Part shown: piece by piece, positions 2,611 to 52,399 of the stretch
How positions within the stretch are numbered: position 1 is the first letter of the stretch
Layout: every line of letters starts with the position of its first letter
Source: the human T2T-CHM13v2.0 reference genome, Homo sapiens
Direction: 5' to 3'
DNA length: 64,000 nt
Assembly: GCA_009914755.4 (NCBI GenBank)
Contig: CP068257.2
Coordinates: 31,456,001 to 31,520,000, forward strand
Position numbers and translations under genes: made by a program
The notes under the pieces: generated by a model
The model's input: the letters and a program-made list of their open reading frames with translations, nothing else
Told to the model about the DNA's origin: nothing
Databases searched by the model: none

Positions 2611-3629
2611 TGATTAACATTTATCAGTCTGGTGAGCAAAATCCCTGTAGGATAGGATATCAAAAACACAGAAATTCCCAATCCCCACCCGTGGCTAGTC
2701 ACCCAAGACCAACCCCCTCAACTTGCCCCCAAGCTTGCTCTATTTCCCCCTTCTTCCCTCAGGCACTGCATTTGCCAACACCGCACTTGCCACTCTCCTG
2801 CCTTCACAGCTGCTCACACTGCCACTCTTTCCGCCATCCAGTCAGCCTCCCTGTGCCCCCTTTGTCCCTCCAAAAGAGTCCTACAAACTCTTCAGACTTG
2901 GCTCCAATGCCGGCCCCATGCCTCTCTGACCACTTAGGCAGAGGCAACCTCCCTCTCCCTTGCATGTCCTCCAGGGCAGGGGTGAGATCTCACTTCACCT
3001 TGCACCCTCCAGGGACCCTGAAAATAGGGCAGACCCTGGATAAACATGGGGAGGAGAGAGGGAGATAGCAGGGGAAGGAAGATAAGGCAGGACAGAGGAT
3101 GCAGTGAGAAAGACAGAGAGGAAGGCAGGTTATTAGAGTCAGGTAGCAGAATGCGATCTTAATCTAACTGCTTCAATTGTGTATTCAAATAGAAAACAAG
3201 ACCATTCCAAAAAGTAAACTCCTTCCCAGATCTCTGAAGAATTTATATAATGGAATTGAAACTTTGAGAACACAATGCCAATAGCTCCTCTGGCTACCAA
3301 TCTTATGCTGTGAAATAAATAAATGATGTGAGGGCTTTGCTTAGGGATACCCAGGGCTACAAAATGCAAAAGAAATGTGCATTTCAAACACAGGAAAGGC
3401 CAGTTCCACAGGCCATATGGGTGCCCGAGGAAGCTCTAGTCTTCTTATTTTATGAACATATAATTCATCTTTCTATTTCCTGGCATCTGCTCTTATTTCA
3501 TTAAGATATTCACTCTTTGGCTTCTCTCTCCCAGGAATTAGAGGTGAAGGATAGGCCATGCCTGAACTAAAACAAACACTTTGTGGAGCTTGCCCCACTC
3601 AATCCATTTAAAATCAACTCCTACTATAG

Positions 3630-4758: not shown

Positions 4759-5043
<285 letters not shown>

Positions 5044-6623
5044 CCTTATTTTTTATTTTGATCGTCTTTCTGCCAGGTCCTGGGAGGCTTTTTGGGGTGC
5101 TGGTGTCTGTGTTGATTCCCCCACTCCTGTACACACCCGTCTGCTTGCGTGGGATCCACTGGGTAGTGTCACAGTTGACCAGACAGAACTTTCTAATCAG
5201 TTTTCCAAAGCCGTGATGAGGGTTTGGTGTTTTCTTCTGAGAATCTCACTTTCACAGTGTTTCCCCCACCAAATGCAGTGAAATTCAGCGTCTTTTTTTG
5301 GTTTTGTTTTTGTTTTTTTCTGAAGCTCTTGGAAAACAGCACTCAGGAAACGCACCAACTGGGCAACCTCTATCTTACCCACTAATCCTACCTTTGAGGA
5401 TCTTTCCTGAGGAAATAATAAGGCATGTTACCTAGTTACACCCTTTATAATAGGAAAATATATATAAAATGAAAAAATATACAAAGGAAAAAATAATATA
5501 ATGAGAAAAAATCACAGTACCTTTTATAATAGGAAATAGCTGGAAACAACCTAAATATCCAAAAATGTAAGATAGTATCAAATAATTAAGATAAAGTCAT
5601 AGGATAAAATTCTATGCCACCCCCTGGGGTGAAATTTTATAAGAATATTAAATGTTAGAGGAAAATGATTCTAATATCAGTGAAAAAGTAAATTATAAAG
5701 CAGTGTGATTCCAAATACCTAACTACTTGTTGACAGTGGTTATCTCTGAGTGGTTGTGTAAGAATGCTTTATGTTTGCTTCTTTTGTTCTATATACATTT
5801 TCTAAAATTTCTTTAATGAAAACATTCTATCTTCAATGTAATGTTTAAAAAGAGAAGCTGGAAATGATAATGCCTGGACTCCCTTTGCTCACATTCAGAA
5901 TCTCCTTTGCAAAGGCCAGACCCAGGCTCACGGCTGATGCCGCCAAAGGTGTTCAGTAGACCCTGGCATGGATACCGGGGCAGGTTCCTGGCTGGCGACG
6001 GGGTGCCCCTGGGTAAAGCTCCCCTCCAGAGGGTGCCCCCATGACCAGGGCTTTGCTGGAAGCAGCCTTCTGATGAGACGCTACCAGATTAGACAGACAC
6101 TTCCTGATTAGACACTGTATTTTACCTGGAACCTAACTGATTGGACGGTCATACTTATTATCTTAGTTTCTTCTTTTAAAAAATGATAATAAGAATATTT
6201 AGTGACATAGAAAAATGTTTATTTACATGGTGAAGGAAGCAGATTAAGAAAATGTACACTCCTAATTATATATAATATATATAATGATAAATTAATGTGT
6301 TTCTTAGTTCTGACAAATGTATTGTAGTTAGGTAAGCTGTTAACAATAGGGAAAACTGGGTGAGGAGTATAGGGGAGCTCTCTGAACTATTTTTGCAACA
6401 TTTCTGTAAACTTAAAATTATTCCAAAATAAAAGGTTTATTTTAAAATAAGGGAACTTATTCACTGTAGGGCACACATTTCTCAGGGCCTCAATTATTTA
6501 ACATTTAATTTAATAAAACACTTTGGAAATCCAAAAAAATTACGTATGTATTTTTATCTGTATTACAAGTCTATTCACATGTAAGTTATAGAAGAAAGCT
6601 ATTCTAGAAAATACACCAAAACA

Positions 6624-7004
<381 letters not shown>

Positions 7005-8419
7005 TTAAGATTTTCCTATAAGAAAACTCTTCTATAATTATTACCTATATAATTCTGTAGTATATACATTATATTATATAATATATAAAAATAAAATTAC
7101 TTTTATGAGATTGCTTTTAAAATCAGAAAAAATTTAAAATAGCCACGTGGATTTTCCAAGAGTCCCACCAGCAGCTGTGAGGCTGAGAGTGTGTAAAGCC
7201 GGGCAAAGCTATTGGCAGGAGGAGGCAGCTATGCACGGGCTCTGGGTATCGTTCACACTGGAGGTACTATATGTGCTTAATATGGACTAGGCATGAGCAG
7301 CTAATAGTGCTTTTAGAACCACAAAGTCAAATTGATAATGATAGCATTCCTAATTTAGCACAATGAAAAGCCTGGTAACTATTGCCCGAGCTAATGAATG
7401 GGTAAGAGAAAGAAAAGCTTCTTTTCTTTTGTAAAGCTTAACATTAAAATTAGCTGCATCTGTTACCTTTGGTGCAAAAAGCAAAGACGGAAGAAACCCT
7501 GTTCCAGTTGGTATTTTGCCTCTGAGATCTTTATGCCTGAGCTCTTCAAGTCGCAGATAACAGTGAAGGCCCTAAGACTCACCATCCAAAACAGTTTTGG
7601 AAAAAAACCAAAGAAGAGAAAATAATTTCAAACCTTAAAGCAATGCATGGTGATTCTCTGGGGGGTCTAAGAATTTCTCCCAGAGAAATGATAAGGCAGA
7701 CAAATGGAAGATCAATGAAGCAACATCGTGGCAATAATGCAATTGGTCCTGCCGTAGTCATGAACATGTAAATAACAAGACAGCAATAAGAAGACCCCAG
7801 ACTCTGCCTAGAAACAAAATATTCAGCCTGTTGTTGTTGTTTCTTATTGCAGGATTTTGAGTGGAAAAGTAGTTCCACTTGTCAATCAGCTACGTTGCAG
7901 GGGCTAATAGATTCTGGTGTTTAGGGAGGTCAACACGGAATTTAATTTAACATCTCACAATACACCCACATGCCCAGAAAATGTGGACAGCTTGATAGGG
8001 TTCACTGAGCCAAAGAAGCAAGACCCAAACAGTGCATTAATGTATAGGGGAAGAATAGTTGCAATCAGCCCCTTGTGAATTGGACAGAGGGCTTGGAGAT
8101 GAAGCAATTATCAGCCATCGGGGATTAATAGTAAAGTGTGAATACCAAGCTGTATATGTTAGGGGCAGAATATGTTGCCTATAGAAAACAACAAAGGACG
8201 TTTCTTACTATTAAGTGAGATTAAACGTAATGGCCTGATTTAATCACAAAGGCAGAATTAAATTCAGATGGCAACTTCAAAGTGGACACAGGAACACAGG
8301 CCACTGCTTACATTTACATATAGCTGGCATAGCTTGGCCTGCAACACAATAGGATAAAGTTTCTTTGGCCACTTAAACAATTTTCTATTCTTCACCTTTT
8401 TCTTTTTTTCTTTTTTTTT

Positions 8420-21211: not shown

Positions 21212-21653
<442 letters not shown>

Positions 21654-21829
21654 TGAAACGGATTCGGGACTTTCTTTTAGCTTAAGATGAGAGTAGATAG
21701 TGGAAGAGGAGCCTGTCCAAATACCATCTGCAGACGAAGGAGCGTCTACAAAACACACGAGGGACCTAGAAACCAACAGACCCATCCCATCTCTCTCAGG
21801 TTCAGCAATTCTTTCCTTCCTCGGAGGGC

Positions 21830-22420
21830 GTTTCTGATAGGACAAGCTGGGCCCGGGCGGATTCTCACCCCACCACCCCAACTCCAGGCTTGGGTCCATC
21901 TGCCGCCAGTGGTGACTTGGGTGGCGCCCTCCGCAGCAGACAGCCGTGCGCCCTCGGCGACCCGGTCCCTGCGCTCCGGCGCCCGCAGGTCCTCGCTCCC
22001 GGCTTCTGCACCTCCCGCTCCGGGACATCTGGCTGAGCCGCGCCTCCCTCTCCCCGCAGCCTCCGCCGGCCCCGCCTCCCCTCACCACCCTTCCCTTGTT
22101 TGGGGCGGTAAGGTCAGAAGCGTTCAACAATTCAACGTGGGAAGTCTCTCGGAGGAAGTGCCAGGTCATAAATTTCACCCAACAAGAGGCTCCCATCAAG
22201 CTTGGGCTTGTTAGGAAACCTCCCAGTCGCTAATCGAGGGTTAGGCAGCTCCAGGGCGGGTGGGCTACGGGGCAGCCAGGGAGCAAGGATGAGGGCCTGG
22301 GGCTGCGGGTGCAGAGGGTTGTTGGGGTCCAGGTGTTCAGTGCCTTGCGCGCGTGGCTGTCGCTCTGCCCCTCTGGTATTGCCCGGCTGTATCACAACCC
22401 TTAGATGTGTCCAAACGGTC
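21830..22420. promoter_or_regulatory. CpG island (about 0.6 kb, GC-rich, more than 40 CpGs). Putative promoter with Sp1-type GC boxes and a splice-donor-like GCG|GTAAGG at about 22094-22102.
   Basis: Dense CpGs: ccgtgcgccctcggcgacccggtccctgcgctccggcgcccgcaggtcctcgctcccggcttctgcacctcccgctccggg...ccgcgcctccctctccccgcagcctccgccggccccgcctcccc...ggggcggtaaggtc. The GC box is GGGGCGGGGC on the minus strand. The only Alu-free GC island in the window. Confidence 0.6.
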
Positions 22421-22654
22421 CTTGTGTGTATAAGACACACACCCACGCACATTTGGGAGAAGGGGGTAGTCAGTGTCTCTTTACATTGCAGCGGTACGTT
22501 AAACCCCGTCTGGGTTATTTTAAGCCTGAAGTTCATGAAAGGAAACATTTGAGTAAGTTAAGGCTGTGTTGAATGCCGCGTTCCTTATGACCTTGCCATC
22601 TGAATGTGATGGTGGTTCCCAGAAGAAACAAACAGGCAAGAGGTTAAAGACAGA

Positions 22655-22730
22655 GTTCTAGACCCAGCCCTTGCTGTGTGACCCTGAGTGAGTCACTGTA
22701 TGTCTCTGAGCCCCATTTCCCGCCGCGGAG
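22655..22730 (+). mobile_element. MIR (SINE/MIR) core fragment
   Basis: CCCTTGCTGTGTGACCCTGAGTGAGTCACTGTATGTCTCTGAGCCCCATTTCC matches the MIR core ..AGCTGTGTGACCTTGGGCAAGTTACTTAACCTCTCTGTGCCTCAGTTTCC. Confidence 0.6.
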
Positions 22731-23109
22731 TGAGGGAATTGGAGGGTCGGTGGGCGTGAGGCAGCTCTAAGTCCCCCTGGGCTCTAACGGCCTCTGGTCT
22801 TTGCCCCTCCTCCCTCTCCCTGCAGTACTAACAAGGTGAAAGAAGGGTCTTATCGAATTCAGCCTTTGTCCTGCTGCCATTTGTCATGGGAAATCTTTCC
22901 AGGGACTGGCACTCTGACTTGGTTGGAAAGCCAAGGGTATTGAGCCCACATCAATAGAAGGAAGGTTTGCAAGCCAAGTCTACACCTGCCCTCTGCCGTG
23001 CCCAACAGAGGGGAGACAGTCTGGGGATTATTTACCCCTGGAACTTTTGCTGCAATAAATAAAGCAATGCTGGAGGCTTGAAGGAGTTTAAAGACTAACA
23101 GGGGAGATA

Positions 23110-23310
23110 ATAATTGTTACTATGCACCAGGCAGGGTTCTAAGTCCTTTGCATAAATTAACCCACTTAAGCCTCCCAACAGCTCCCTGAGGTTGGATACT
23201 ATTAGCCCATTTTTACAGGTGGGTAAACTGAGGTACGGGGGGTTAAATAATTTGCCTAAGATCATACTACAGGGAAGCAGTAGAGAGGAGACTCGAACCC
23301 CTGAAAACAC
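23110..23310 (-). mobile_element. MIR (SINE/MIR), about 200 bp
   Basis: ..CACCAGGCAGGGTTCTAAGTCCTTTGCATAAATTAACCCACTTAAGCCTCCCAACAGCTCCCTGAGGTTGGATACTATTAGCCCATTTTTACAGGTGGGTAAACTGAGGTACGGGGGGTTAAATAATTTGCCTAAGATCATACTACAGGGAAGCAGTAGAGAGGAGACTCGAACC is the reverse complement of the MIR consensus. Confidence 0.75.
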
Positions 23311-25802
23311 AAAGAGCAGCCCTGGGCCCTCGGCAAAGACGACGCTTCCTATCCCGGGGACAGAGGGAGACAAGTCCAGGCATCCCAGAGAGCAGGAATC
23401 CCAGAGCAAAGGCCAGGAGTGGGACCACAGGCAGAGTAAGGGGCCCAGGTGGCTGGTGCACCCGCCTGAGGATCGGATGTCTCTCTGGGGCATTGTGTCT
23501 ACTTAAAGCGCTTGGCTCAGGTTTTCCATCAGGCCCAGAAGAGCCATTTTGGGGCAGCACAGAGACCTCAGAGGAATGAGCTCAACTGAGCGGCTGTAGT
23601 TTGCAAAAGCTGCCGACCAGACAAGCTTCACCCTTCAGACCAAAAAGAAAAATCCCCTCTGGAGCCTGAATTGTTCGGCAAAAAAGATAAACGTAGAAGC
23701 CAGTCCCAGATCTTAGAGCACCTCAATGGGACATGTGGATCATTTTCTGTAGTTAACAAGGAACCCTTAAAAGAATAAGCCATTCTTGTTACGGCTTTTG
23801 AATTGTGATGGCTTTTGCCTGCAATATCTGTATGTTTATGGCAAAATCATTATTTTGAGATGAACTATCTGGATAACTGTCGGAGAGAAACTGCAGGCTG
23901 CATTTCACCACTGATGCTCTGTTTTATGCATGTGTTGCATGTATTCCCACCAGTTGGTGGTAAACTTTTGCATTTTTCAAGCCTGTCAGAGGACCGACCC
24001 ACTTTCTGTGCAGTGTCAGAAGCTCAAGAGAGAAGCCAGAAGAAAAAGACACAGTAGCCTGTAGCCTTCGGTGCACATCTGCAAAGAATGCATGCCTATT
24101 GCCACTATTGCATTCTGTCCGGGGCTCTATCATTCATCTTCTAAGCCAAACTTCTGCCAAGTCCTCTCATTTGTCCATCGAACATTTCCGTACCGGCTGT
24201 TTTTCCATCTTACCTCGCCAAAGTTGTTTATATTCTCCCTGAGTGACAGAGCAAACAAAAGCTGGGCAAAAGCAAACAAATAGGGTCTTCTGATAATTGA
24301 ACCACTTTTGAATCTTTCATTGACAACATCTCCACACCGAAGAACACCTGCCATAGGTATCAAGCATAAATGCTTCTTCATCAATGGTTGCTTGCATCGA
24401 AAAGGGCTCAGAAAGATAGGACTCCTGACTGTTCCCTCAGAAAACGTTTGTGTTTCAGCTCATCTGGGATTGGAGAGCCCATTTCTTCCTGATGTGTGTC
24501 ACTTGGAGGCCTCCAACCTGCAAACATCAGGATGGCTGCTTCCCTGCAAAATTAGGCAGCTGCAGGTTGACTTGAGTCTGTGTCTCCCGATCCAGAATGT
24601 GGGACGATGCAATTGAATAAGTGTGGGATGCTTTCTTCATAGCATAATGCTACACGATGACTTCCTACAGACACACACACTGAGAGAGACCAAGGGAGGA
24701 TAAATTTGGGATAAAAATGCCACAATCTCATGGCCTCAACACCAAACTGGTGCTGATCCAATTCTTCCCGAAATGAAATGTGATGTTTCTGAATTCCTTC
24801 TGGCTGCCGCTGAAAGCCCCCACTTTTCCTGGTGACTGTGGGAGGCTGCGATGTGGTGGGGGTGGGGCACGGAGTACTGGGCGCTAAGCTCTCTCCTGGC
24901 TTCACATAAAGGAAGCAAAATCAAAATCCAAGCCTGAAAAAAAAGAAAAAAAGAAAACTAAATTTAATTGGCTAGGAAACAGGATTCCTGGGGCCTCTGC
25001 TTTCCCAGCTTCCAGAGAAGGATTTAGGCTGGGACACTTCCCCGCCCTCAGGACAAAAAGAAAAAAAAAAAAGGATTAAATTCGGGTTGGGTCTGGCTAG
25101 TACAAATTGCATGCAGAGTATACAGTTGCTTTGCATATTGCATGTGCTTTCATGGAGAGGGAAAACGGGGGAAGAGGGAGGGCAGGGACACTAAAGAGGG
25201 GAAAAAACTAAAAACAACTTGCTGTTTTCATATGGTCGGATAGAACTGTTTTGTCTTTGTAACTGTGCAGAATGTCAATGGTAGGCACCGTGTCGTGACA
25301 AGATTTTTTTTTTTTAAGTTAAGCTAAGCTCACACCCGAGCTGTAGCCCCCCGAGGTACTGCAGCTTTAATTGTGTTCAGTATGATCTACAGAACAATAT
25401 GTCTTGATAAATCTGAATGGCAACCCAGCGCACGGTTCCCCTTGGCATTGCTGCAAAGCCAGGCCTCGCTTTAGTGAACCCGTTCAGGAATGTGGGTTAA
25501 TTCGCCGACCCTTTTTACCCCCACAGCTCTGTTTTTGTGAGGTTGGCAGAAACTGACACGTTTTCTTTTGCTTAATTAAGTTGTTCAGTAGAAGGCTGGT
25601 CAAACAGTTGCATCTACGTGGGGAGTCTGGAGATGCACAGAAAGCCGTGGGCGTTTCCAACATAAAAAGGGGGATTCTGTTATTGTTTGGGTGTAGACGG
25701 GTCATTTTTTCAAAGTTACTGCTGCCTGAGTGACCACAACCCTGTGCGCAGCCCTGAAAGGACATTAAAGCTGCTTAAATACAACTACCTTCGGTTTACT
25801 TT

Positions 25803-25825
25803 TTAAAAGAGAGAGAGAGAGAAAG
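25803..25825. repeat. (GA)n microsatellite
   Basis: aaagagagagagagagaaagaggga. Confidence 0.85.
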
Positions 25826-27020
25826 AGGGAAAGAACAAGCAGGAGAGAAACGAAGCGGTCCCATTTATGTAGCATTTTATTTCTTTCCGGACTTTTTTTT
25901 TTTTTTTAAGGCAAAGAGTGGGCTCATTTGCATAAGAGATGCCCATACATTATGAATTACTGCTAGTATGATCAAACTCTCTTTCCAATCAGTAAAACAA
26001 AACTGGTACCATACCCATAGAAATTGCACTGGCCTTCTGAACAGAGGAGTGGGATCTAATCACCCTTATGCCAGACATTGGGGTTAGGAAAATGTCTAAA
26101 ATCTCCATTGATGAAATTCCCGCTTTCGTTCCTTGGTGATATTATGACAACCACACACAGTATCAGTCTCATGGATTCTCAAAGGAACTGAGGGCCTGAT
26201 TGGAGGCCTCCTCCATCACGTCTCTGTCCCTTTTTGAAGCCTCCTATATTTCTAATTCAAATCACCTTTATCATTGATATGCAGATCCCCCCGATTTTCT
26301 GTGGATATTTGGTCCCAGCAAGAGTTTTTCTCATTGCACGTACTGTGTGATATATTTAACCGGAGGCAGGTGGAGGCACTGGCACCTGGGCTTTGGGATC
26401 CTAGTGCTAACAATGAATGGCCTTGGTCTACTGTATGCCCTGAGTTGTTTCTATTGATGCCACTGTGCCTCAGTTTATCCATAACAGCAGATGCTCATTG
26501 TGGGTACTTAACAGGCACCTAATACATACATTTCTGAGTTTAAGCTGCCCTCTTTCTCCCTTGGCAATAAAGCAATAATTAGAAAACTCACTGATTCCGC
26601 AGCACCTGGCACCGTCACTGTGCTGATAATCAACACCATGATTTTCAGCAGTTATGAAGCCCGGGTGCCCATTGGTGAAGCATCAGGCTTGCAGGGCTGC
26701 TCAAGGGATGTTTGTACATACTTGGTCTTGCAGAGAGCCATTATGCCTGTTTGGAAGCCAGGCACTCCAATTTTCCCCCAGGTCCCAGAACTGCAGCTTT
26801 TGGAAAGCCCAAAGATCAGCCTCTTCCTTCTAGAGAGAGAAAAGACTGCAGGGTCAAACATTTCAAGAGACTTCACCATGATTTTTCACTTCTCTTAATA
26901 TACAAGAAACAGTAGGCAATTATTTGACTGATGTTAGTTGCATGAATGGCAAAATGATTCTCAGGCCAAAGAACAATCCATTTTGGAGTATAAATGACTT
27001 GGATCAGCAGTCTACACTGA

Positions 27021-27320
<300 letters not shown>

Positions 27321-28482
27321 CGGTTTTTCATTACAAGCAATACCTGCTTACTCCTCAGATTTTGCCAGAGTTGATTATAGATTTATACTCAAGACACCAA
27401 GCTCCTATATTTAGGTTGTGTATATTCAGGTTCCCAAAAATACACAAGAAGTTGCCCAGATTTCAAGGCGCTTCCAACCTCTAAGTAGAGAGGATGGGGA
27501 GATTTCGAAGACCTGTTTTGCACAACCATTCCCAGATGACTTATTACTCTGAAGAACCAACGCCTGGCTGCACAAAGAAATGCAAAATGCTTCCCCCGGT
27601 TCTGGTGGTCGATGTTTAAGGACCACACAGGACACCAGTCTGCAGTGTCCCTATCTTACTTCTCCCTCACTGATGGCTCGAGGAAGACCCCAGAATCTGG
27701 GTCCGGTCCACCGATCTTCACGGTCTTAGAGCCACGATACTTAGGTCACCTGCCTTACTTTCAAAAAGGCCAAACTCAAAACTACACACAAGTCTCACAT
27801 ACACTTTTAAATCGCAGCTGACGGGCTGGTCTTAGCACCTCTTAAAGAGAGAAGTTGTGGGAAGTGAGAGAAGGCCTAAGCAGATGGGAGCCGAGATGGC
27901 CGGGCGGCAAGTGGCTGCCGGAGTCGTGCCACCTGGCTGTCTTCCCACAGTCTGGAGGGGGTGTGTGTGGCTGGCAGTTCCATTCCTGCTTGAGGTGGCG
28001 GGCCCTCTCCCCCTTTCCAATTCCCTGACAGCCCGGGCAGATTTTCCTTTGGCTTTTGAAAATCCAGGACATATTATTCCTCAAAGTCGCCAAGTTCCAG
28101 CTGCTAGAGAGAGCCAGCCTTTCGCTCTGTTGCCCCACCATCGAGCCTACATCTTTACACCCAGGGAAACAGAAGGCCTTCCTCCATGCGGGCAAGCCCA
28201 CAAGAGTTCGGATGCTGCCGCTCGGGTCCTGCAGACAGAGGGGAGGATTCACAAGGGCTGGCCAGGAGCCATCCCACTAGCCCTGGCACTTGCAGCTCCA
28301 CATGGAGCTCTGCGGCTCTTCAGGACAAAGAGGAGTGTTTTTATCAGCCCAACGTTCTGCTGACAAATGCATAATAAACTGACAGAAAGCGACCAAGCAG
28401 CATTTCAAAACCCCCAGTTACAGGGGAGGCCAAGCCTGAGTGGAGATGGTCACTTTCTGCAGGTGTTCGGCCAGTGTCCCTG

Positions 28483-28500
28483 CATTTGCATGCATTTGCA
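28483..28500. promoter_or_regulatory. Tandem POU octamer motifs (ATTTGCAT x2, direct, 1-bp spacer)
   Basis: tgcATTTGCATgcATTTGCATatac read directly. Surrounding sequence is unique and non-repetitive. Confidence 0.3.
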
Positions 28501-28827
28501 TATACTGTCAAACAGTTGGCTGACAGAAAGTCTGAGGAGGTCTGGACACAGCCCAAACCTGTCAGTGGCTTTCTCCTTGCCAGTCAAGGTTGGCTGTGGC
28601 TGCAATTAAGGCAGGAAACGAATACTTCTGACATTGCAATATACCCAGCCACAGCTGGGCGAAGTTAAATGGAAAAGTGTGCTTTATTTAGAAAGACAAG
28701 ATGCATGCTGGAAAAAAAAAGATGGGGAAGGCCAAGAGTGGTAAATGCTCAGAAAGTGACACTCTACACTCATTCTGCAAAAGGAAACAAATATTTTTCA
28801 GTCCTTCCAGGTTGCTGTGCTGTGGTG

Positions 28828-28858: not shown

Positions 28859-30053
28859 GGGTGAGTGAGCAGATTTCCCCACTGAGTGAGGCCAATTCAG
28901 CATGTGAGAGGAGCTTGCCAGACACTACACCTTTTATCTTCAGAGTATCATCTCAGGAAGCAGGGAGGAAGCTCATCCCCAAACCGCATTTCCGTGACAC
29001 ACGTGCTACCCCATAAGGCTCCACTGTTCTGTTCAGTGTTGGCAAATAGGTAGCCATGGCTTGGAGGGGGTGAGAAAATTGGAGGGGGCCGAGCACAAGC
29101 GTCACGTTGTCCCCCCACCACCCCGCACAAGGGTTACAGCTCATATTAGCATATGGATTGCCATGGGAAAGAAACAAAATCAGAGCCTTCACTACTGTAA
29201 GAGTGAATGGCCTCAAGAGATGGAGGGGGCGGGGAAGGAAGAAAGCCAAAGAGAAAGGTTGTTGTTGTTCTTGCTGTTTTTAAGAACACATGAGATTTAT
29301 ATTTTTGGAGGCCTGTGTCCTTCTGAGATGTTGTTTTACAGATTCTTTAAGCGAGACCTAACAATTTATTAAATACTTCATCTCTAAACAGTGGTGGGCA
29401 CTAGAGTTTCATGAGCAGCAAACAATAGATTCTGTTTATTCGCCAACAATACAGACACTGTTTAGCTCCGGACTGCAAGTGGCTGAGCCATCTGGCTCAT
29501 ATCTCCACAGTAAAACATTGTCCGTGACACAAAAAATGACTACATCCCCAGGACAAACTAGTGTGACCTCTAAATAAAGCCTTCCTCTGAAGCTATGATA
29601 TCACACTGCACAGGGGACACCAGCACAATTGAATCTGGTCACCAAAAGCCCAAGTGAGATAGGACTATGTAAATGGAATTTTATAGGAGACTTTTTGTCC
29701 TCCGTGGCAAACCATCCAGATCCGTCCACAGCACTGAAACATCTTTTTCATTCACCCCTGGGACAACAGTGTGGTTCTATTTGGCGATTGGCAGTCCTCT
29801 TTCTCCCGCGCCCTACCCAGGAAGCACACGTCCGTGTTCCCGAGGCAGCACCTGCAGCCTTTGCTTCCAACAACTTTTCACTGATGGGGGCCCCACCTGC
29901 ACCAGCCTTTTTGCTGATATTTCAGAAACAAGCGGCCCTTTCTCCTCCCTGCCAGGGAGAAGGCCCAAGTTTGCCAGCTTCTTCACAAATAGCCAAACAA
30001 GTCACTCTCAGCCTTGCGCCACCTGAATGCCCGCTTCACGAGGCAAACAAGTA

Positions 30054-35677: not shown

Positions 35678-35930
35678 GGGTCCCCGCCATGCCCAGAGCC
35701 AGCTCCCAGGTGACCCTGGCCCTGTGAACAAAGTTCACACTAAAACAAGGAAGAGCTTTCCTGCCCCACCTCTCTTCTCATATTTGGGGCCAGTCGGGTG
35801 GGGAGAAAACTTCTTACCACATGCAGCCTGTGTACTCCGGTCTGGTGGGATAGCAAGGTCCTGCTGTGCACAGGTCAGGCCCCGGGTGTCCTCCTGCCCT
35901 CCACCCAGCCACTGACAAATAGAGCTTTCC
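35678..35930 (+). repeat. Local low-copy repeat unit (about 250 bp), direct copy. Inverted partner at 37088-37340.
   Basis: About 90% identity to the reverse complement of 37088-37340 by eye. The six-frame track gives the same peptide on opposite strands: ..TKTRKSFPAPPLFSYLGPVGWGE..HAACVL.SGG.ARSCCAQVRP.VSSCPPP.H at 35640-35915(+) and 37091-37402(-). Confidence 0.85.
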
Positions 35931-36431
35931 TTTGTTTTGCCCTGTGACCAAAGTTCTTATATGCCTTAAAGGGGAAAGAGATTTTTTCTTATACAAAATC
36001 ACCCAGAAGCCATTCAAGGCAAACAACTCACCCAAGGGCAATCAGGAAACTGCTGACAGAGGCCAGCCAACCAGAACCAGGGTCCCTGGGCACTGGGTGC
36101 AGAGCCCAGTACCCTGAGGAAGCTGCCATCAAAGGAGTGACTCATCCCAAATGATGTCGGCATTGACCAATGAAAACAAAAGCTGAGGTAGAGAAACTGT
36201 CAGAGGGGCCTTACCTTTCCAAGCCTGGGTACCAACACTCTGAGTCCTCATTGGATCTTCTTTTGAAGACCGACCCCTGCAGGGAGACCCTCGATGAGTA
36301 AAAAATATATAAACAAATATAAACAGGTCAGTGAGCCGACCAATCACATCTTACATCCGATGGGATAAAGCCAGTGTGTCAGGGCTGGCCATGGGCTCAA
36401 AAATGTGTGGGTAAGAATTAATGTGGAATCA

Positions 36432-36769
<338 letters not shown>

Positions 36770-37087
36770 TCAGAAAAATTTTGTACTGCCCTACCTCCCT
36801 TTAGCAAAGGAGGACAGGACAATGAAGAATCTATTGGCAAAGCAGAGAAAACAGGCTATATCGCTTGCCAAGCCCCTGGAATTCTGAGAAGGTGCTTCTC
36901 CTGTGATAGCGGTCACTGGTACGGCAAGAGGTTGACAATCCCTGGCCAAAACTCCGAAGGGGGTGGCATGTTTCTGCAGAAACGCAGCAGAGGGTCAGGT
37001 ACCCCAAATGCACCCTCCTTCCTGGTAGCAAGCAGGGTCCCCCGCTGGAAGAGCTGCCTGTTTGGGGCAGGTTTTCTAAATATTAAA

Positions 37088-37340
37088 ATGTCAGTGGCCG
37101 GGTGGAGGGCAGGAGGACACCTGGGGCCTGACCTGTGCACAGCAGGACCTTGCTACCCCACCAGACTGCAGTACACAGGCCGCATGTGGTAAGGTTTCTC
37201 CCCACCCAACTGGCCCCAAATATGAAAAGAGAGGTGGGGCAGGAAAGCTCTTCCTTGTTTTGGTGGCAGGCAAGTGTCTGTGGTCAGGAGCCATGGAGAC
37301 TCGTGCCACGGACTGCGAAGCCACCCAGCCATCTGGCCCA
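37088..37340 (-). repeat. Inverted copy of the 35678-35930 repeat unit
   Basis: GTCAGTGGCCGGGTGGAGGGCAGGAGGACACCTGGGGCCTGACCTGTGCACAGCAGGACCTTGCTACCCCACCAGACTGCAGTACACAGGCCGCATGTGGTAAG..CCCCAAATATGAAAAGAGAGGTGGGGCAGGAAAGCTCTTCCTTGTTTTGGTG is the reverse complement of the 35.7-kb copy. Confidence 0.85.
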
Positions 37341-49844: not shown

Positions 49845-50631
<787 letters not shown>

Positions 50632-51389
50632 TTACGAACGTAGGGCACAAACCACCGTGGTATTTGCAGTTCCTACACCTTCCTCACCAGTCCAAATCGC
50701 TGACATTTTCAAGTTGTGTTACAATTGTTGGAGACCTCCTGAAATACTGTTTGCACTCTTACTTTATCTGCTAGACTTGCCACTCAATCTTGTTATTTAA
50801 TGTGCTTTCAAATAACTGCATAATTCTGCATCACAGATCTGTATCTGTAAAATATTTTCAGCATTATATTTCCATATAATTGGTTTCCTTTTATTCATGA
50901 GTATTTTATTTTATGCATTTAAAAATGTTATTCTGAGGAGTAGTTCGGAGGCTTCACCACACCAAACGGAACAGGGGCAGGGCTTCGGCTCTGGAGCTGC
51001 CACATTTAACAGTGAGGCTCTGTAGCTGCCATATTATTTAGTAGTTGCTGGCTGGCAGAGCCAGAAATCCACATGGAAATTGTGAGTGCATGTGCGTTTG
51101 GGTGTCTTGCAGAAGACAGCAAAGCACCTTTTAAGCATAAGCAGGACATAGCCCTGACCTCGGTGGGACCTCGCACTTTGAGATCTGAGGTGCACTCTGA
51201 CTTCTTGGGAGGAAGGGGAGGCTGAGCCCAGATACTCCTCAGTCTCCCCTACTCAGGCTCGTTCAATCAATGCACTGTCCTGTCCCCTAAGTTAGTCTAC
51301 ATGAGAGCAGTGCTTCCTTTCCTAATGAGAACAAGCGTAGAAGTCACCACTATACATGTAAGCACTGGCAGAAATGCAGGATGTGTTGC

Positions 51390-51590
51390 CAGCGCTGCGA
51401 AGATGCACACCCGCAGAAGAAAGCAACAGCAGAGAGCGCGGCAAACCACAGCCACTGTGCGGAGCTTCGCACCCAGCACGCTCCCAGAACCACGGAGCAT
51501 CAGGCAGCGCCGGCGTTCTAACCCCGCGTGCCCTCGCATGACGGCAGAGGCGTTGGTATTTAGGTTTTGTAATTAATTAACTGCCTTTCT
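51390..51590. promoter_or_regulatory. CpG-dense patch (about 170 bp, about 17 CpGs) followed by a TAATTAATTAA homeodomain-type motif
   Basis: cagcgctgcgaagatgcacacccgcagaag...agagcgcggcaaacc...tgcggagcttcgcacccagcacgctcc...cacggagcatcaggcagcgccggcgttctaaccccgcgtgccctcgcatgacggcagaggcgttgg..tgtaattaattaactg. Unique sequence with no repeat signature. Confidence 0.4.
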
Positions 51591-52399
51591 CTCGGCCTTC
51601 AACCTGGCCTCTGGAAAGCATGTGGGAAGGCACTGCCTAAAAGGAACAGAGAGGATTTGGAGAGAGGCTGGGAATAAGGAGAGAGGCGAGGAGGGAGGGA
51701 GGAAGAACTAGGGTTGTAACGGAAGCTGAAAATACATACTTGAAACCCAGGCAGAGTGGCTACGGTAGTTAGTGGGCTATTTTAATCTTAGGGGTGGGAG
51801 CAGTTGTTCACATGCACCTAAATTAGTGGCTTCGATTTAAGCAGAGTCATTCTATAGTAAGCATTGGTCATTGTCACAGAAAAAGAGCACTTTGAGGACT
51901 CATGAGGAGTTGACTTTGTGGAGGCTCAGAAAAACAGGCCCTCCTGGCAGGTCAGAGAGGAACAAAGAGAATCCCCATTGCTCTGCAGCAAATGTATGTG
52001 GCCTGCTTTGCCGTGGAGTTGTGTGGAGCCAACGTTTCAGCCAGGGAGGGCACAAGCCACAAGACCACACCCTGCCCACCCCCGAGGAGGATGGGACCCC
52101 TTGTGTCCCAAGAGCCTAGGACTGAGTCACTGAACACCAAAGTTGTTTGAAAGAGAAAGAAAAGGGTAGGAAGGCACTTGAGGTTCTATGCAAATGTACC
52201 TCCGAGGCCAGGTGTGTGGAAAGAATGCCCCTCCATGGCTGTGTCAAGAAAAGGAGAGGTGGAGGAAGGGGAGGTTTGTGAAGGCAGTGGGCATGGAAGC
52301 TATGAAAACGGACCCTGGGGAGAGGAGAGGTTCGTGGGACGTGGTGATCCTCAGTCACGCACTCTGTGGGGCAAAAGCCTTGCACACATGGGATCCATT

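What the first reader, a model, noticed from the sequence alone, without database searches (positions are those of the whole stretch)
25100..26000. Alu-free, CpG-retaining unique block with POU-octamer and homeobox-type motifs: candidate conserved enhancer
Seen: the 4.4 kb from about 22.6 to 27.0 kb is the longest Alu-free stretch near the CpG island. Within an AT-moderate, non-repetitive context many isolated CpGs survive (for example cgtgtcgtgacaag, cccgagctgtagccccccgaggtactg, cccagcgcacggttcc, ccaggcctcgctttagtgaacccgttcagg, aattcgccgaccc, cgaagcggtccc). Motifs read directly: ATTTGCAT at 25927-25934, TTGCATATTGCATG near 25128-25141 (MORE-like), and ttaattaag at 25575-25583. Established knowledge: CpGs in methylated neutral DNA decay quickly. 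Survival of scattered CpGs combined with exclusion of young SINEs is typical of constrained non-coding elements near developmental genes. Inference: a conserved regulatory element bound by POU/homeodomain factors.
Basis: partly seen in the sequence, partly recalled or inferred. Interest (0 to 1): 0.5.

Follow-up and report, generated by a model that had tools for sequence, protein, structure and literature searches.

The report
Deeply conserved non-coding regulatory element
Inside the flagged 900 bases of primate DNA sits a real 236-350 base non-coding element that is about 95% identical in a distantly related vertebrate, most likely an ordinary developmental enhancer-type conserved element, but the POU-octamer motifs, Alu gap and CpG pattern that drew attention to it are mostly outside it or at chance level.

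Summary
The window is primate (human-like) DNA with 33 Alus. CpG o/e at 25100-26000 is 0.54, against 0.29 for non-Alu background (nominal P 0.0045). The Alu-free gap is real (21511-27045) but no longer than chance gives (P 0.70), and it contains MIRs. The octamer and "MORE-like" words are at chance frequency.

The key new evidence is a 12.6-kb vertebrate contig found in a JGI metagenome (locus L001). It is collinear with the window in four blocks and unalignable in between. One block is 25443-25794 (87.7% identity). Its core, 25509-25744, aligns without gaps at 95.3% and includes an 88-base identical run.

The block shows no coding signal (codon phases 16/15/12, pN/pS 0.82), no excess RNA structure and no Rfam match.

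TTAATTAAG lies inside the core and is conserved. ATTTGCAT at 25926 and TTGCATATTGCATG at 25131 lie in DNA that does not align. A conserved double octamer does exist 3 kb away, at 28484-28501, in a neighbouring conserved block.

Best reading: a conserved non-coding element of the enhancer type, one of a cluster. Enhancer activity, the target gene and the partner species could not be tested here. This is a known kind of element, so interest is low to moderate.

The parts
25443..25794 (.). Alignable conserved non-coding block (the real element inside the finding)
   Evidence: blastn against L001 4982-5336: 87.7% over 357 columns, E 5e-120; alignments.
25509..25744 (.). Highly conserved core: 236 bp, ungapped, 95.3% identical (11 mismatches)
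   Evidence: Mismatches fall on codon phases without third-position bias, and pN/pS is 0.82 in the one frame that is open.
25657..25744 (.). 88-bp run identical between the window and L001
25572..25580 (.). TTAATTAAG palindromic homeodomain-type word, conserved
   Evidence: Lies in the 28-bp identical run 25561-25588.
25661..25738 (.). Array of conserved words resembling transcription-factor sites: CATAAA (CDX/posterior-HOX-like, 25661-66), ATTGTT (SOX-like, 25682-87), GGGTCA (nuclear-receptor half-site, 25699-704), TTCAAAG (TCF/LEF-like, 25709-15), ACCACA (RUNX-like, 25733-38)
   Evidence: Consensus words typed from general knowledge; all are identical in L001. A word match is not evidence of binding.
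25544..25653 (.). Further conserved words: TGACA (MEIS/TGIF core, 25554-58), CAGTTG E-box (25605-10), ACGTG (25616-20), GTGGGCG (EGR-like, 25647-53)
22093..22226 (.). Companion conserved block next to the small CpG island
   Evidence: 81% to L001 7139-7272, collinear, no codon periodicity.
28152..28694 (.). Companion conserved block. It contains the conserved tandem octamers ATTTGCAT-GC-ATTTGCAT at 28484-28501
   Evidence: 79% over 552 bp to L001 2936-3485. The centre, 28440-28560, is about 92% identical with both octamers kept.
29329..30051 (.). Companion conserved block
   Evidence: 79% over 753 bp to L001 1716-2459, stops in all frames, phases 43/38/44.

Best explanation
Window 25443-25794, with its core at 25509-25744, is a conserved non-coding element (CNE) under strong purifying selection. 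It is one of at least four collinear CNEs spread over about 8 kb (22.1, 25.5, 28.4 and 29.7 kb).

It most likely works as a distal cis-regulatory module of the enhancer type. On this reading, a dense and order-constrained array of transcription-factor sites is read by a combination of factors and controls a developmentally regulated gene in the same regulatory domain. The array includes a palindromic homeodomain site TTAATTAA and TCF/LEF-, SOX-, CDX/HOX-, RUNX-, MEIS/TGIF- and EGR-like words.

Shown here: conservation, synteny, absence of a coding signal, absence of an RNA-structure signal, and conservation of the motif words.

Inferred: factor binding, enhancer activity, the target gene, and the idea that the mildly raised CpG content reflects selection on 4 conserved CpGs plus local hypomethylation around a bound element.
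For: A pseudo-protein scan of JGI metagenome contigs returned one syntenic contig, Ga0065711_1047034. blastn gives four blocks in the same order and orientation (window 30051-29329, 28694-28152, 25794-25443, 22226-22093). Nothing else aligns, even with word size 7 and +1/-1 scoring.

The core is 236 bp, ungapped, at 95.3% identity, with an 88-bp identical run.

Non-coding: mismatch phases are 16/15/12 and ts/tv is about 1. pN/pS is 0.82 and the ends of the open frame differ between the species. tblastx aligns all six frames about equally.

No structured RNA: fold z-scores are -0.28 and +0.54, and there is no Rfam match at E <= 1 apart from Alu.

Not a repeat within the window and not MIR or Alu.

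The motif words are kept exactly.

Against: - There is only one orthologue, and its species is unknown. The depth of conservation is inferred from unalignable spacers, the absence of Alu/MIR/tRNA-SINE matches and ts/tv of about 1, not from a named taxon.
- No chromatin, expression or reporter data can be reached with these tools.
- The window is Alu-rich (15%), which is atypical of classic gene-desert regulatory blocks.
- No nearby developmental gene was identified.
- Splice-like words at the core edges leave a transcribed-exon reading open.
- Motif words of 5-8 bp are expected by chance in any 236 bp. Only their conservation is informative, and the whole core is conserved anyway.
Confidence: 0.65

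Rival explanations
1. The core is a conserved transcribed non-coding exon on the minus strand (about 25741 to 25519, 223 nt). It could be an untranslated exon, a lncRNA exon or an ultraconserved 'poison' cassette exon, kept for RNA-level reasons.
For: On the minus strand the conserved core begins right after a CAG and ends at GTGGGG|GTAAAA, both present in L001. The L001 acceptor ranks in the top 3% of AG sites. Conservation continues at 66-88% for about 50 bp beyond each edge, as seen around conserved alternative exons. From general knowledge, a sizeable minority of ultraconserved elements are exonic, often in RNA-processing genes.
Against: The splice words are weak. The human acceptor ranks only in the top 14%, and a stronger AG lies 12 nt upstream that L001 lacks. 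The plus strand has a strong acceptor but no positive-scoring donor. No coding exons of a host gene appear in the 8 kb shared with L001. A crude splice-plus-ORF screen of the whole window yielded no candidate that looks protein-like by eye (not checked against any database). There is no excess RNA structure. The neighbouring blocks of 550-750 bp look like enhancer-type CNEs with factor-site words.
Confidence: 0.15
2. The element is conserved non-coding DNA with a chromatin role that is not an enhancer role, for example a silencer or Polycomb-recruiting element, an insulator or boundary, or a promoter-proximal element of the transcript that starts at the 22-kb CpG island.
For: The conservation evidence is the same as for the best explanation. 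The element lies 3.4 kb from a small CpG island (21.65-22.55 kb: GC 0.59, o/e 0.65), and that island has its own conserved block at 22093-22226.
Against: By eye, the core has no CTCF-type consensus. Its word content (homeodomain, TCF/LEF, SOX, RUNX) is the usual enhancer vocabulary. Sequence alone cannot separate these roles.
Confidence: 0.12
3. The 96-codon frame at 25487-25774 (minus strand), open in both species, encodes a conserved small protein or a coding exon.
For: The frame is open over 96 codons in the window and in L001, with 83% amino-acid identity.
Against: pN/pS is 0.82. Within the core, 9 of 11 differences are non-synonymous and only 2 fall on third positions. The start codon is not conserved (M to V). 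The frame's ends differ (176 codons in L001). There was no hit among 5.8 billion proteins. The frame stays open simply because few bases change.
Confidence: 0.03
4. There is nothing functional: a chance fluctuation in CpG and motif content in unique DNA.
For: This holds for the parts of the finding outside 25443-25794. There is no alignment to L001 there, the octamer and MORE-like words are at chance frequency, and the Alu gap is not significant.
Against: For the core it is excluded by 95.3% ungapped identity within otherwise unalignable DNA, in a collinear four-block arrangement.
Confidence: 0.03

Closest known systems
Ultraconserved non-coding elements as defined in UCNEbase (non-coding, over 200 bp, at least 95% human-chicken identity; PMC3531063), and the genomic regulatory blocks they form
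   Same: The core is non-coding, 236 bp long and 95.3% identical to a distant vertebrate. It sits in a collinear cluster of conserved non-coding blocks, as UCNE clusters do.
   Different: The partner sequence is an unnamed metagenome contaminant, so human-chicken identity as such was not tested. The surrounding window is Alu-rich, and no target developmental gene was seen.
Bejerano-type ultraconserved elements (at least 200 bp, 100% identical in human, mouse and rat; definition quoted in PMC3531063)
   Same: Extreme conservation without coding potential.
   Different: No rodent sequence was available. The longest identical run against L001 is 88 bp, and that is against a much more distant species.
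VISTA-type developmental enhancers found by extreme conservation (general knowledge)
   Same: Size, conservation profile, and a dense set of homeodomain, SOX, TCF and RUNX-type words.
   Different: No reporter or chromatin evidence here. Activity is inferred.
Octamer/MORE-dependent POU-factor elements
   Same: The flagged 900 bp contains one perfect octamer and a TTGCAT direct repeat.
   Different: Both lie outside the conserved block and occur at chance frequency. The conserved POU-type site in this locus is the tandem octamer at 28484-28501, in a different conserved block.
Ultraconserved poison cassette exons of RNA-binding-protein genes (general knowledge)
   Same: A block of about 220 nt, highly conserved and non-coding, bounded by AG and GT on one strand, with conservation spilling into the flanks.
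   Different: The splice words are weak, there are no nearby coding exons, and there is no transcript evidence.

Membership tests
UCNE (UCNEbase definition, PMC3531063) | Non-coding | tested here: met
   Codon phases 16/15/12, pN/pS 0.82, all six frames align equally, no protein hit.
UCNE (UCNEbase definition, PMC3531063) | Longer than 200 bp at 95% identity or more | tested here: met
   236 bp, ungapped, 95.3% against L001.
UCNE (UCNEbase definition, PMC3531063) | The comparison species is chicken | tested here: inconclusive
   The species of L001 is unknown. A non-eutherian origin is suggested by unalignable spacers, no Alu/MIR/tRNA-SINE matches, spacers 0.56-0.75 of human length, GC 0.50 and ts/tv about 1. 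No avian CR1 tail word was found.
Bejerano ultraconserved element | At least 200 bp, 100% identical in human, mouse and rat | not testable with these tools
   No rodent genome is available. The longest identical run against L001 is 88 bp.
Developmental enhancer | Reproducible tissue-specific reporter activity; open chromatin and H3K27ac | not testable with these tools
   No functional-genomics data can be reached.
POU octamer / MORE element | A conserved ATGCAAAT or ATGCATATGCAT site within the constrained sequence | tested here: not met
   The octamer at 25926 and the word at 25131 are outside alignable DNA. There is no MORE match within 2 mismatches at 25131. No octamer occurs in the core.
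Homeodomain-bound element | A conserved TAATTA-type site | tested here: met
   TTAATTAA at 25572-25579 is identical in L001. Binding itself was not tested.
Transposon-free region (at least 5 kb without any transposon; PMC2241635) | At least 5 kb free of all transposon-derived sequence | tested here: not met
   MIR fragments lie at 22670-22720 and 23117-23300. The repeat-free part, 23301-27045, is about 3.7 kb. The Alu gap is not longer than chance.
CpG island | GC at least 0.5 and o/e at least 0.6 over at least 200 bp | tested here: not met
   25100-26000 has GC 0.43 and o/e 0.54.
Conserved cassette / poison exon | Functional splice sites on one strand and spliced transcripts | tested here: inconclusive
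   AG and GT are present and conserved on the minus strand, but they score weakly (top 14%/3% and top 11%). Transcripts are not testable.
Structured non-coding RNA | Folding energy beyond shuffled controls, or an Rfam match | tested here: not met
   z-scores -0.28 and +0.54; no Rfam match.

The most novel reading that the evidence does not exclude
The core is an unannotated ultraconserved non-coding exon on the minus strand (about 25741 to 25519). It would be bounded by AG and GT words kept in a distant vertebrate, for example a poison or regulatory cassette exon or a lncRNA exon. Its frame also happens to stay open over 96 codons in both species.
Probability: 0.08. Interest if true: 0.45.

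Novelty: already known. Interest (0 to 1): 0.25.

Why it matters
If the reading is right, this is one more member of the well-catalogued class of vertebrate conserved non-coding elements, clustered with at least three others. That marks the window as part of a regulatory block for some developmentally regulated gene. Such elements are of practical interest for interpreting non-coding variants, but thousands are already listed in conservation and enhancer catalogues for the human genome. This one is very probably among them, though I could not look that up.

The methodological lesson is more useful. The conserved POU-type site in the locus is a tandem octamer 3 kb away.

Tried and rejected
1. 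A six-frame pseudo-protein of 25100-26140 was searched against the 5.8-billion-protein collection as a proxy for conservation. It gave no hits. That collection does not hold spurious ORFs from vertebrate non-coding DNA, so the route is uninformative.
2. Scans of genome contigs and viral contigs with the two-species pseudo-protein alignment found no further orthologues.
3. Rfam at gathering and E-value thresholds found only Alu-derived SRP and miRNA-like matches.
4. RNA folding of both strands showed no excess stability.
5. The coding hypothesis for the 96-codon frame was rejected by pN/pS of 0.82 and the phase counts.
Pfam on the six frames of 23.55-24.95 kb, which looked transposon-like by eye, found no family.
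7. Attempts to identify the locus or gene failed. ORFs of 110 aa or more look non-genic. A crude splice-plus-ORF screen gave 18 unconvincing candidates. Full-text searches for core sequence strings and for the metagenome id returned nothing.
8. Attempts to name the species of L001 failed. There were no Alu, MIR or tRNA-SINE matches, no CR1 tail word and only trivial tandem repeats.
9. The bacterial promoter/terminator scan is irrelevant to this DNA.
Full report
**What the window is.** The sequence is primate, human-like genomic DNA. A full Alu from the window finds 33 Alu intervals covering 9.9 kb, or 15% of the window. The only Rfam match at gathering threshold is an Alu scored as SRP RNA. 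Overall GC is 0.46 and CpG o/e is 0.30. No ORF of 110 aa or more looks like a gene.

**Checking the observation.**

25100-26000 has 22 CpGs and o/e 0.54, against 0.286 for all non-Alu sequence. It ranks second among non-Alu 900-bp blocks, after the CpG-rich region at 21.6-22.5 kb. The excess is modest: Poisson P = 0.0045 before correction for about 60 windows.
- *Alu-free stretch.* It is real and longer than stated, running 21511-27045. With 33 Alus placed at random, the longest gap reaches 5.5 kb in 70% of simulations. It is therefore not a transposon-free region in the sense of PMC2241635.
- *Motifs.* All three words exist, within 1-3 bases of the stated positions. ATTTGCAT occurs 8 times in the window against 4.2 +/- 2.0 expected. 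The 'MORE-like' word fails to match ATGCATATGCAT within two mismatches. TTAATTAA occurs 4 times against 1.3 expected.

**Cross-species evidence.** No vertebrate genome database is available, so I tried two indirect routes.

The first route failed. A six-frame pseudo-protein query against the large protein collection found nothing.

The second route worked. I translated the 96-codon open frame at 25487-25774 (minus strand) and scanned JGI metagenome contigs with it. This returned one 12.56-kb contig, Ga0065711_1047034 (locus L001), with 83% identity over 94 residues.

blastn of L001 against the window gives four blocks in the same order and orientation:

| Window | L001 | Identity |
|---|---|---|
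| 30051-29329 | 1716-2459 | 79% |
| 28694-28152 | 2936-3485 | 79% |
| 25794-25443 | 4982-5336 | 87.7% |
| 22226-22093 | 7139-7272 | 81% |

Nothing else aligns, even with word size 7 and +1/-1 scoring. Four collinear blocks make orthology, rather than a dispersed repeat, the only reasonable reading.

Several features place L001 well beyond primates, and probably beyond placental mammals:

- The spacers are 0.56-0.75 of their human length.
- L001 has no Alu, MIR or tRNA-like SINE matches.
- Its GC is 0.50.
- Transitions roughly equal transversions in the aligned blocks.

The species could not be named.

**Anatomy of the element.**

The core, 25509-25744, aligns without gaps at 95.3% (11 mismatches) and contains an 88-bp identical run at 25657-25744. 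Identity falls to 66-88% over about 50 bp on each side and then to background.
- *Not coding.* Mismatches fall on codon phases 16/15/12. The single frame that is open in both species has pN/pS 0.82, its start codon is not conserved and its ends differ. tblastx aligns all six frames about equally.
- *No RNA-structure signal.* Fold z-scores are -0.28 and +0.54, and there is no Rfam match at E <= 1.
- *Not repeated* elsewhere in the window.
- *CpGs.* Of the 11 human CpGs in the block, four are CpG in L001 (25503, 25617, 25652, 25698). Two L001 CpGs correspond to human TG/CA. Constraint therefore explains only a small part of the CpG excess.

**Motifs re-examined.**

- TTAATTAAG (25572-25580) lies in a 28-bp identical run.
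- The octamer at 25926 and the TTGCAT repeat at 25131 lie in DNA with no counterpart in L001.
- Other exactly conserved words in the core resemble sites for several factor families:
  - TCF/LEF: TTCAAAG at 25709.
  - SOX: ATTGTT at 25682.
  - CDX or posterior HOX: CATAAA at 25661.
  - RUNX: ACCACA at 25733.
  - Nuclear receptors: half-site GGGTCA at 25699.
  - MEIS/TGIF: TGACA at 25554.
  - EGR: GTGGGCG at 25647.
  - An ACGTG word at 25616.
- These consensus words are from general knowledge. A match is not evidence of binding.
- A conserved POU-type site does exist in the locus, but 3 kb away. The tandem octamers ATTTGCAT-GC-ATTTGCAT at 28484-28501 are both kept in L001, inside a stretch about 92% identical that also carries conserved TGACAG-type words. 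This is also the best MORE-like match in the window.

**Mechanism.** The best-supported reading is a conserved non-coding element acting as a distal cis-regulatory module, one of a cluster. [quoted passage not shown] The core meets the UCNEbase length and identity thresholds (over 200 bp, at least 95%), but against an unnamed species rather than chicken. Factor binding, enhancer activity and the target gene are inferred, not shown. I put this reading at 0.65.

**Rivals.**

- *A transcribed non-coding exon.* On the minus strand the core is bounded by CAG| and |GTAAAA, both kept in L001. The plus strand has a strong acceptor but no usable donor. No neighbouring coding exons were seen. I give this 0.15.
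- *A chromatin role other than enhancer* (silencer, boundary, promoter-proximal element) cannot be separated by sequence. I give this 0.12.
- *A small conserved protein* is unlikely: 0.03.
- *Chance* is excluded for the core, though it remains the best description of the flanks of the finding.

**Novelty and score.** Conserved non-coding elements of this kind number in the thousands and are systematically catalogued for the human genome. This instance is very probably already in conservation tracks, although I could not look it up. I rate it as already known in kind, with interest 0.25.

- The element is real but about 350 bp long.
- It is supported by a homeodomain-type site, not by POU-type sites.
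- It is not explained by Alu exclusion.
- It is only weakly related to CpG retention.

**Limits.**

- There is one orthologue, of unknown species.
- There are no functional-genomics data.
- The locus and target gene were not identified.

Noticed in passing
window 28484-28501 (within conserved block 28152-28694): The tandem POU octamers ATTTGCAT-GC-ATTTGCAT are both conserved in L001 (3128-3148), inside a stretch about 92% identical with conserved TGACAG/CTGTCA words. This is the best MORE-like match in the window (1 mismatch) and the real conserved octamer site of the locus.
   Followed up: partly
window 22093-22226, 28152-28694, 29329-30051: Three further conserved non-coding blocks (79-81% identity, no codon periodicity) are collinear with L001. 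Together with the flagged element they form a cluster of conserved non-coding elements over about 8 kb.
   Followed up: partly
window 21650-22550: A small, weak CpG island (GC 0.59, o/e 0.65 over 900 bp; peak at 21900-22099 with GC 0.76, o/e 0.85) abuts the conserved block 22093-22226. L001 is also GC- and CpG-rich just beyond its copy of that block. This may be a conserved promoter of an unidentified transcript.
   Followed up: partly
window 25487-25774 minus strand: A 96-codon frame stays open in both species, but pN/pS is 0.82 and the start codon is not conserved. The frame is a by-product of high nucleotide conservation.
   Followed up: yes
window 25519 and 25741 (minus strand); 25527 (plus strand): Splice-like words sit at the edges of the conserved core: cag|GGTTGT and GTGGGG|gtaaaa on the minus strand, both kept in L001 but weak by crude scoring, and a strong acceptor-like ...acccccacag|CTCTG on the plus strand with no matching donor.
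   Followed up: partly
window 22670-22720 and 23117-23300: MIR (ancient SINE) fragments lie inside the 'Alu-free unique' stretch.
   Followed up: yes
window 35818-35964 (-) and 37029-37188 (+): Two similar ORF-like peptides (…VAGWRAGGH.GPDLCTAGPCYPTR…) lie in inverted orientation on either side of the Alu at 36436-36733. They are probably two copies of an interspersed repeat.
   Followed up: no
window 50560-51600: Another unique stretch with raised CpG o/e (about 0.5) has an enhancer-like look by eye (for example gtaattaattaactgcc near 51565). It was not covered by L001, so its conservation is untested.
   Followed up: no
L001 (JGI metagenome contig Ga0065711_1047034): A public metagenome carries a 12.6-kb contig of vertebrate nuclear DNA, from the host or a contaminant. 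It was useful here as an accidental orthologue. Its species is unknown.
   Followed up: partly
window 23550-24950: This stretch has several medium-length ORFs on the minus strand that looked transposase-like by eye. It has no Pfam match in any frame and no counterpart in L001.
   Followed up: yes
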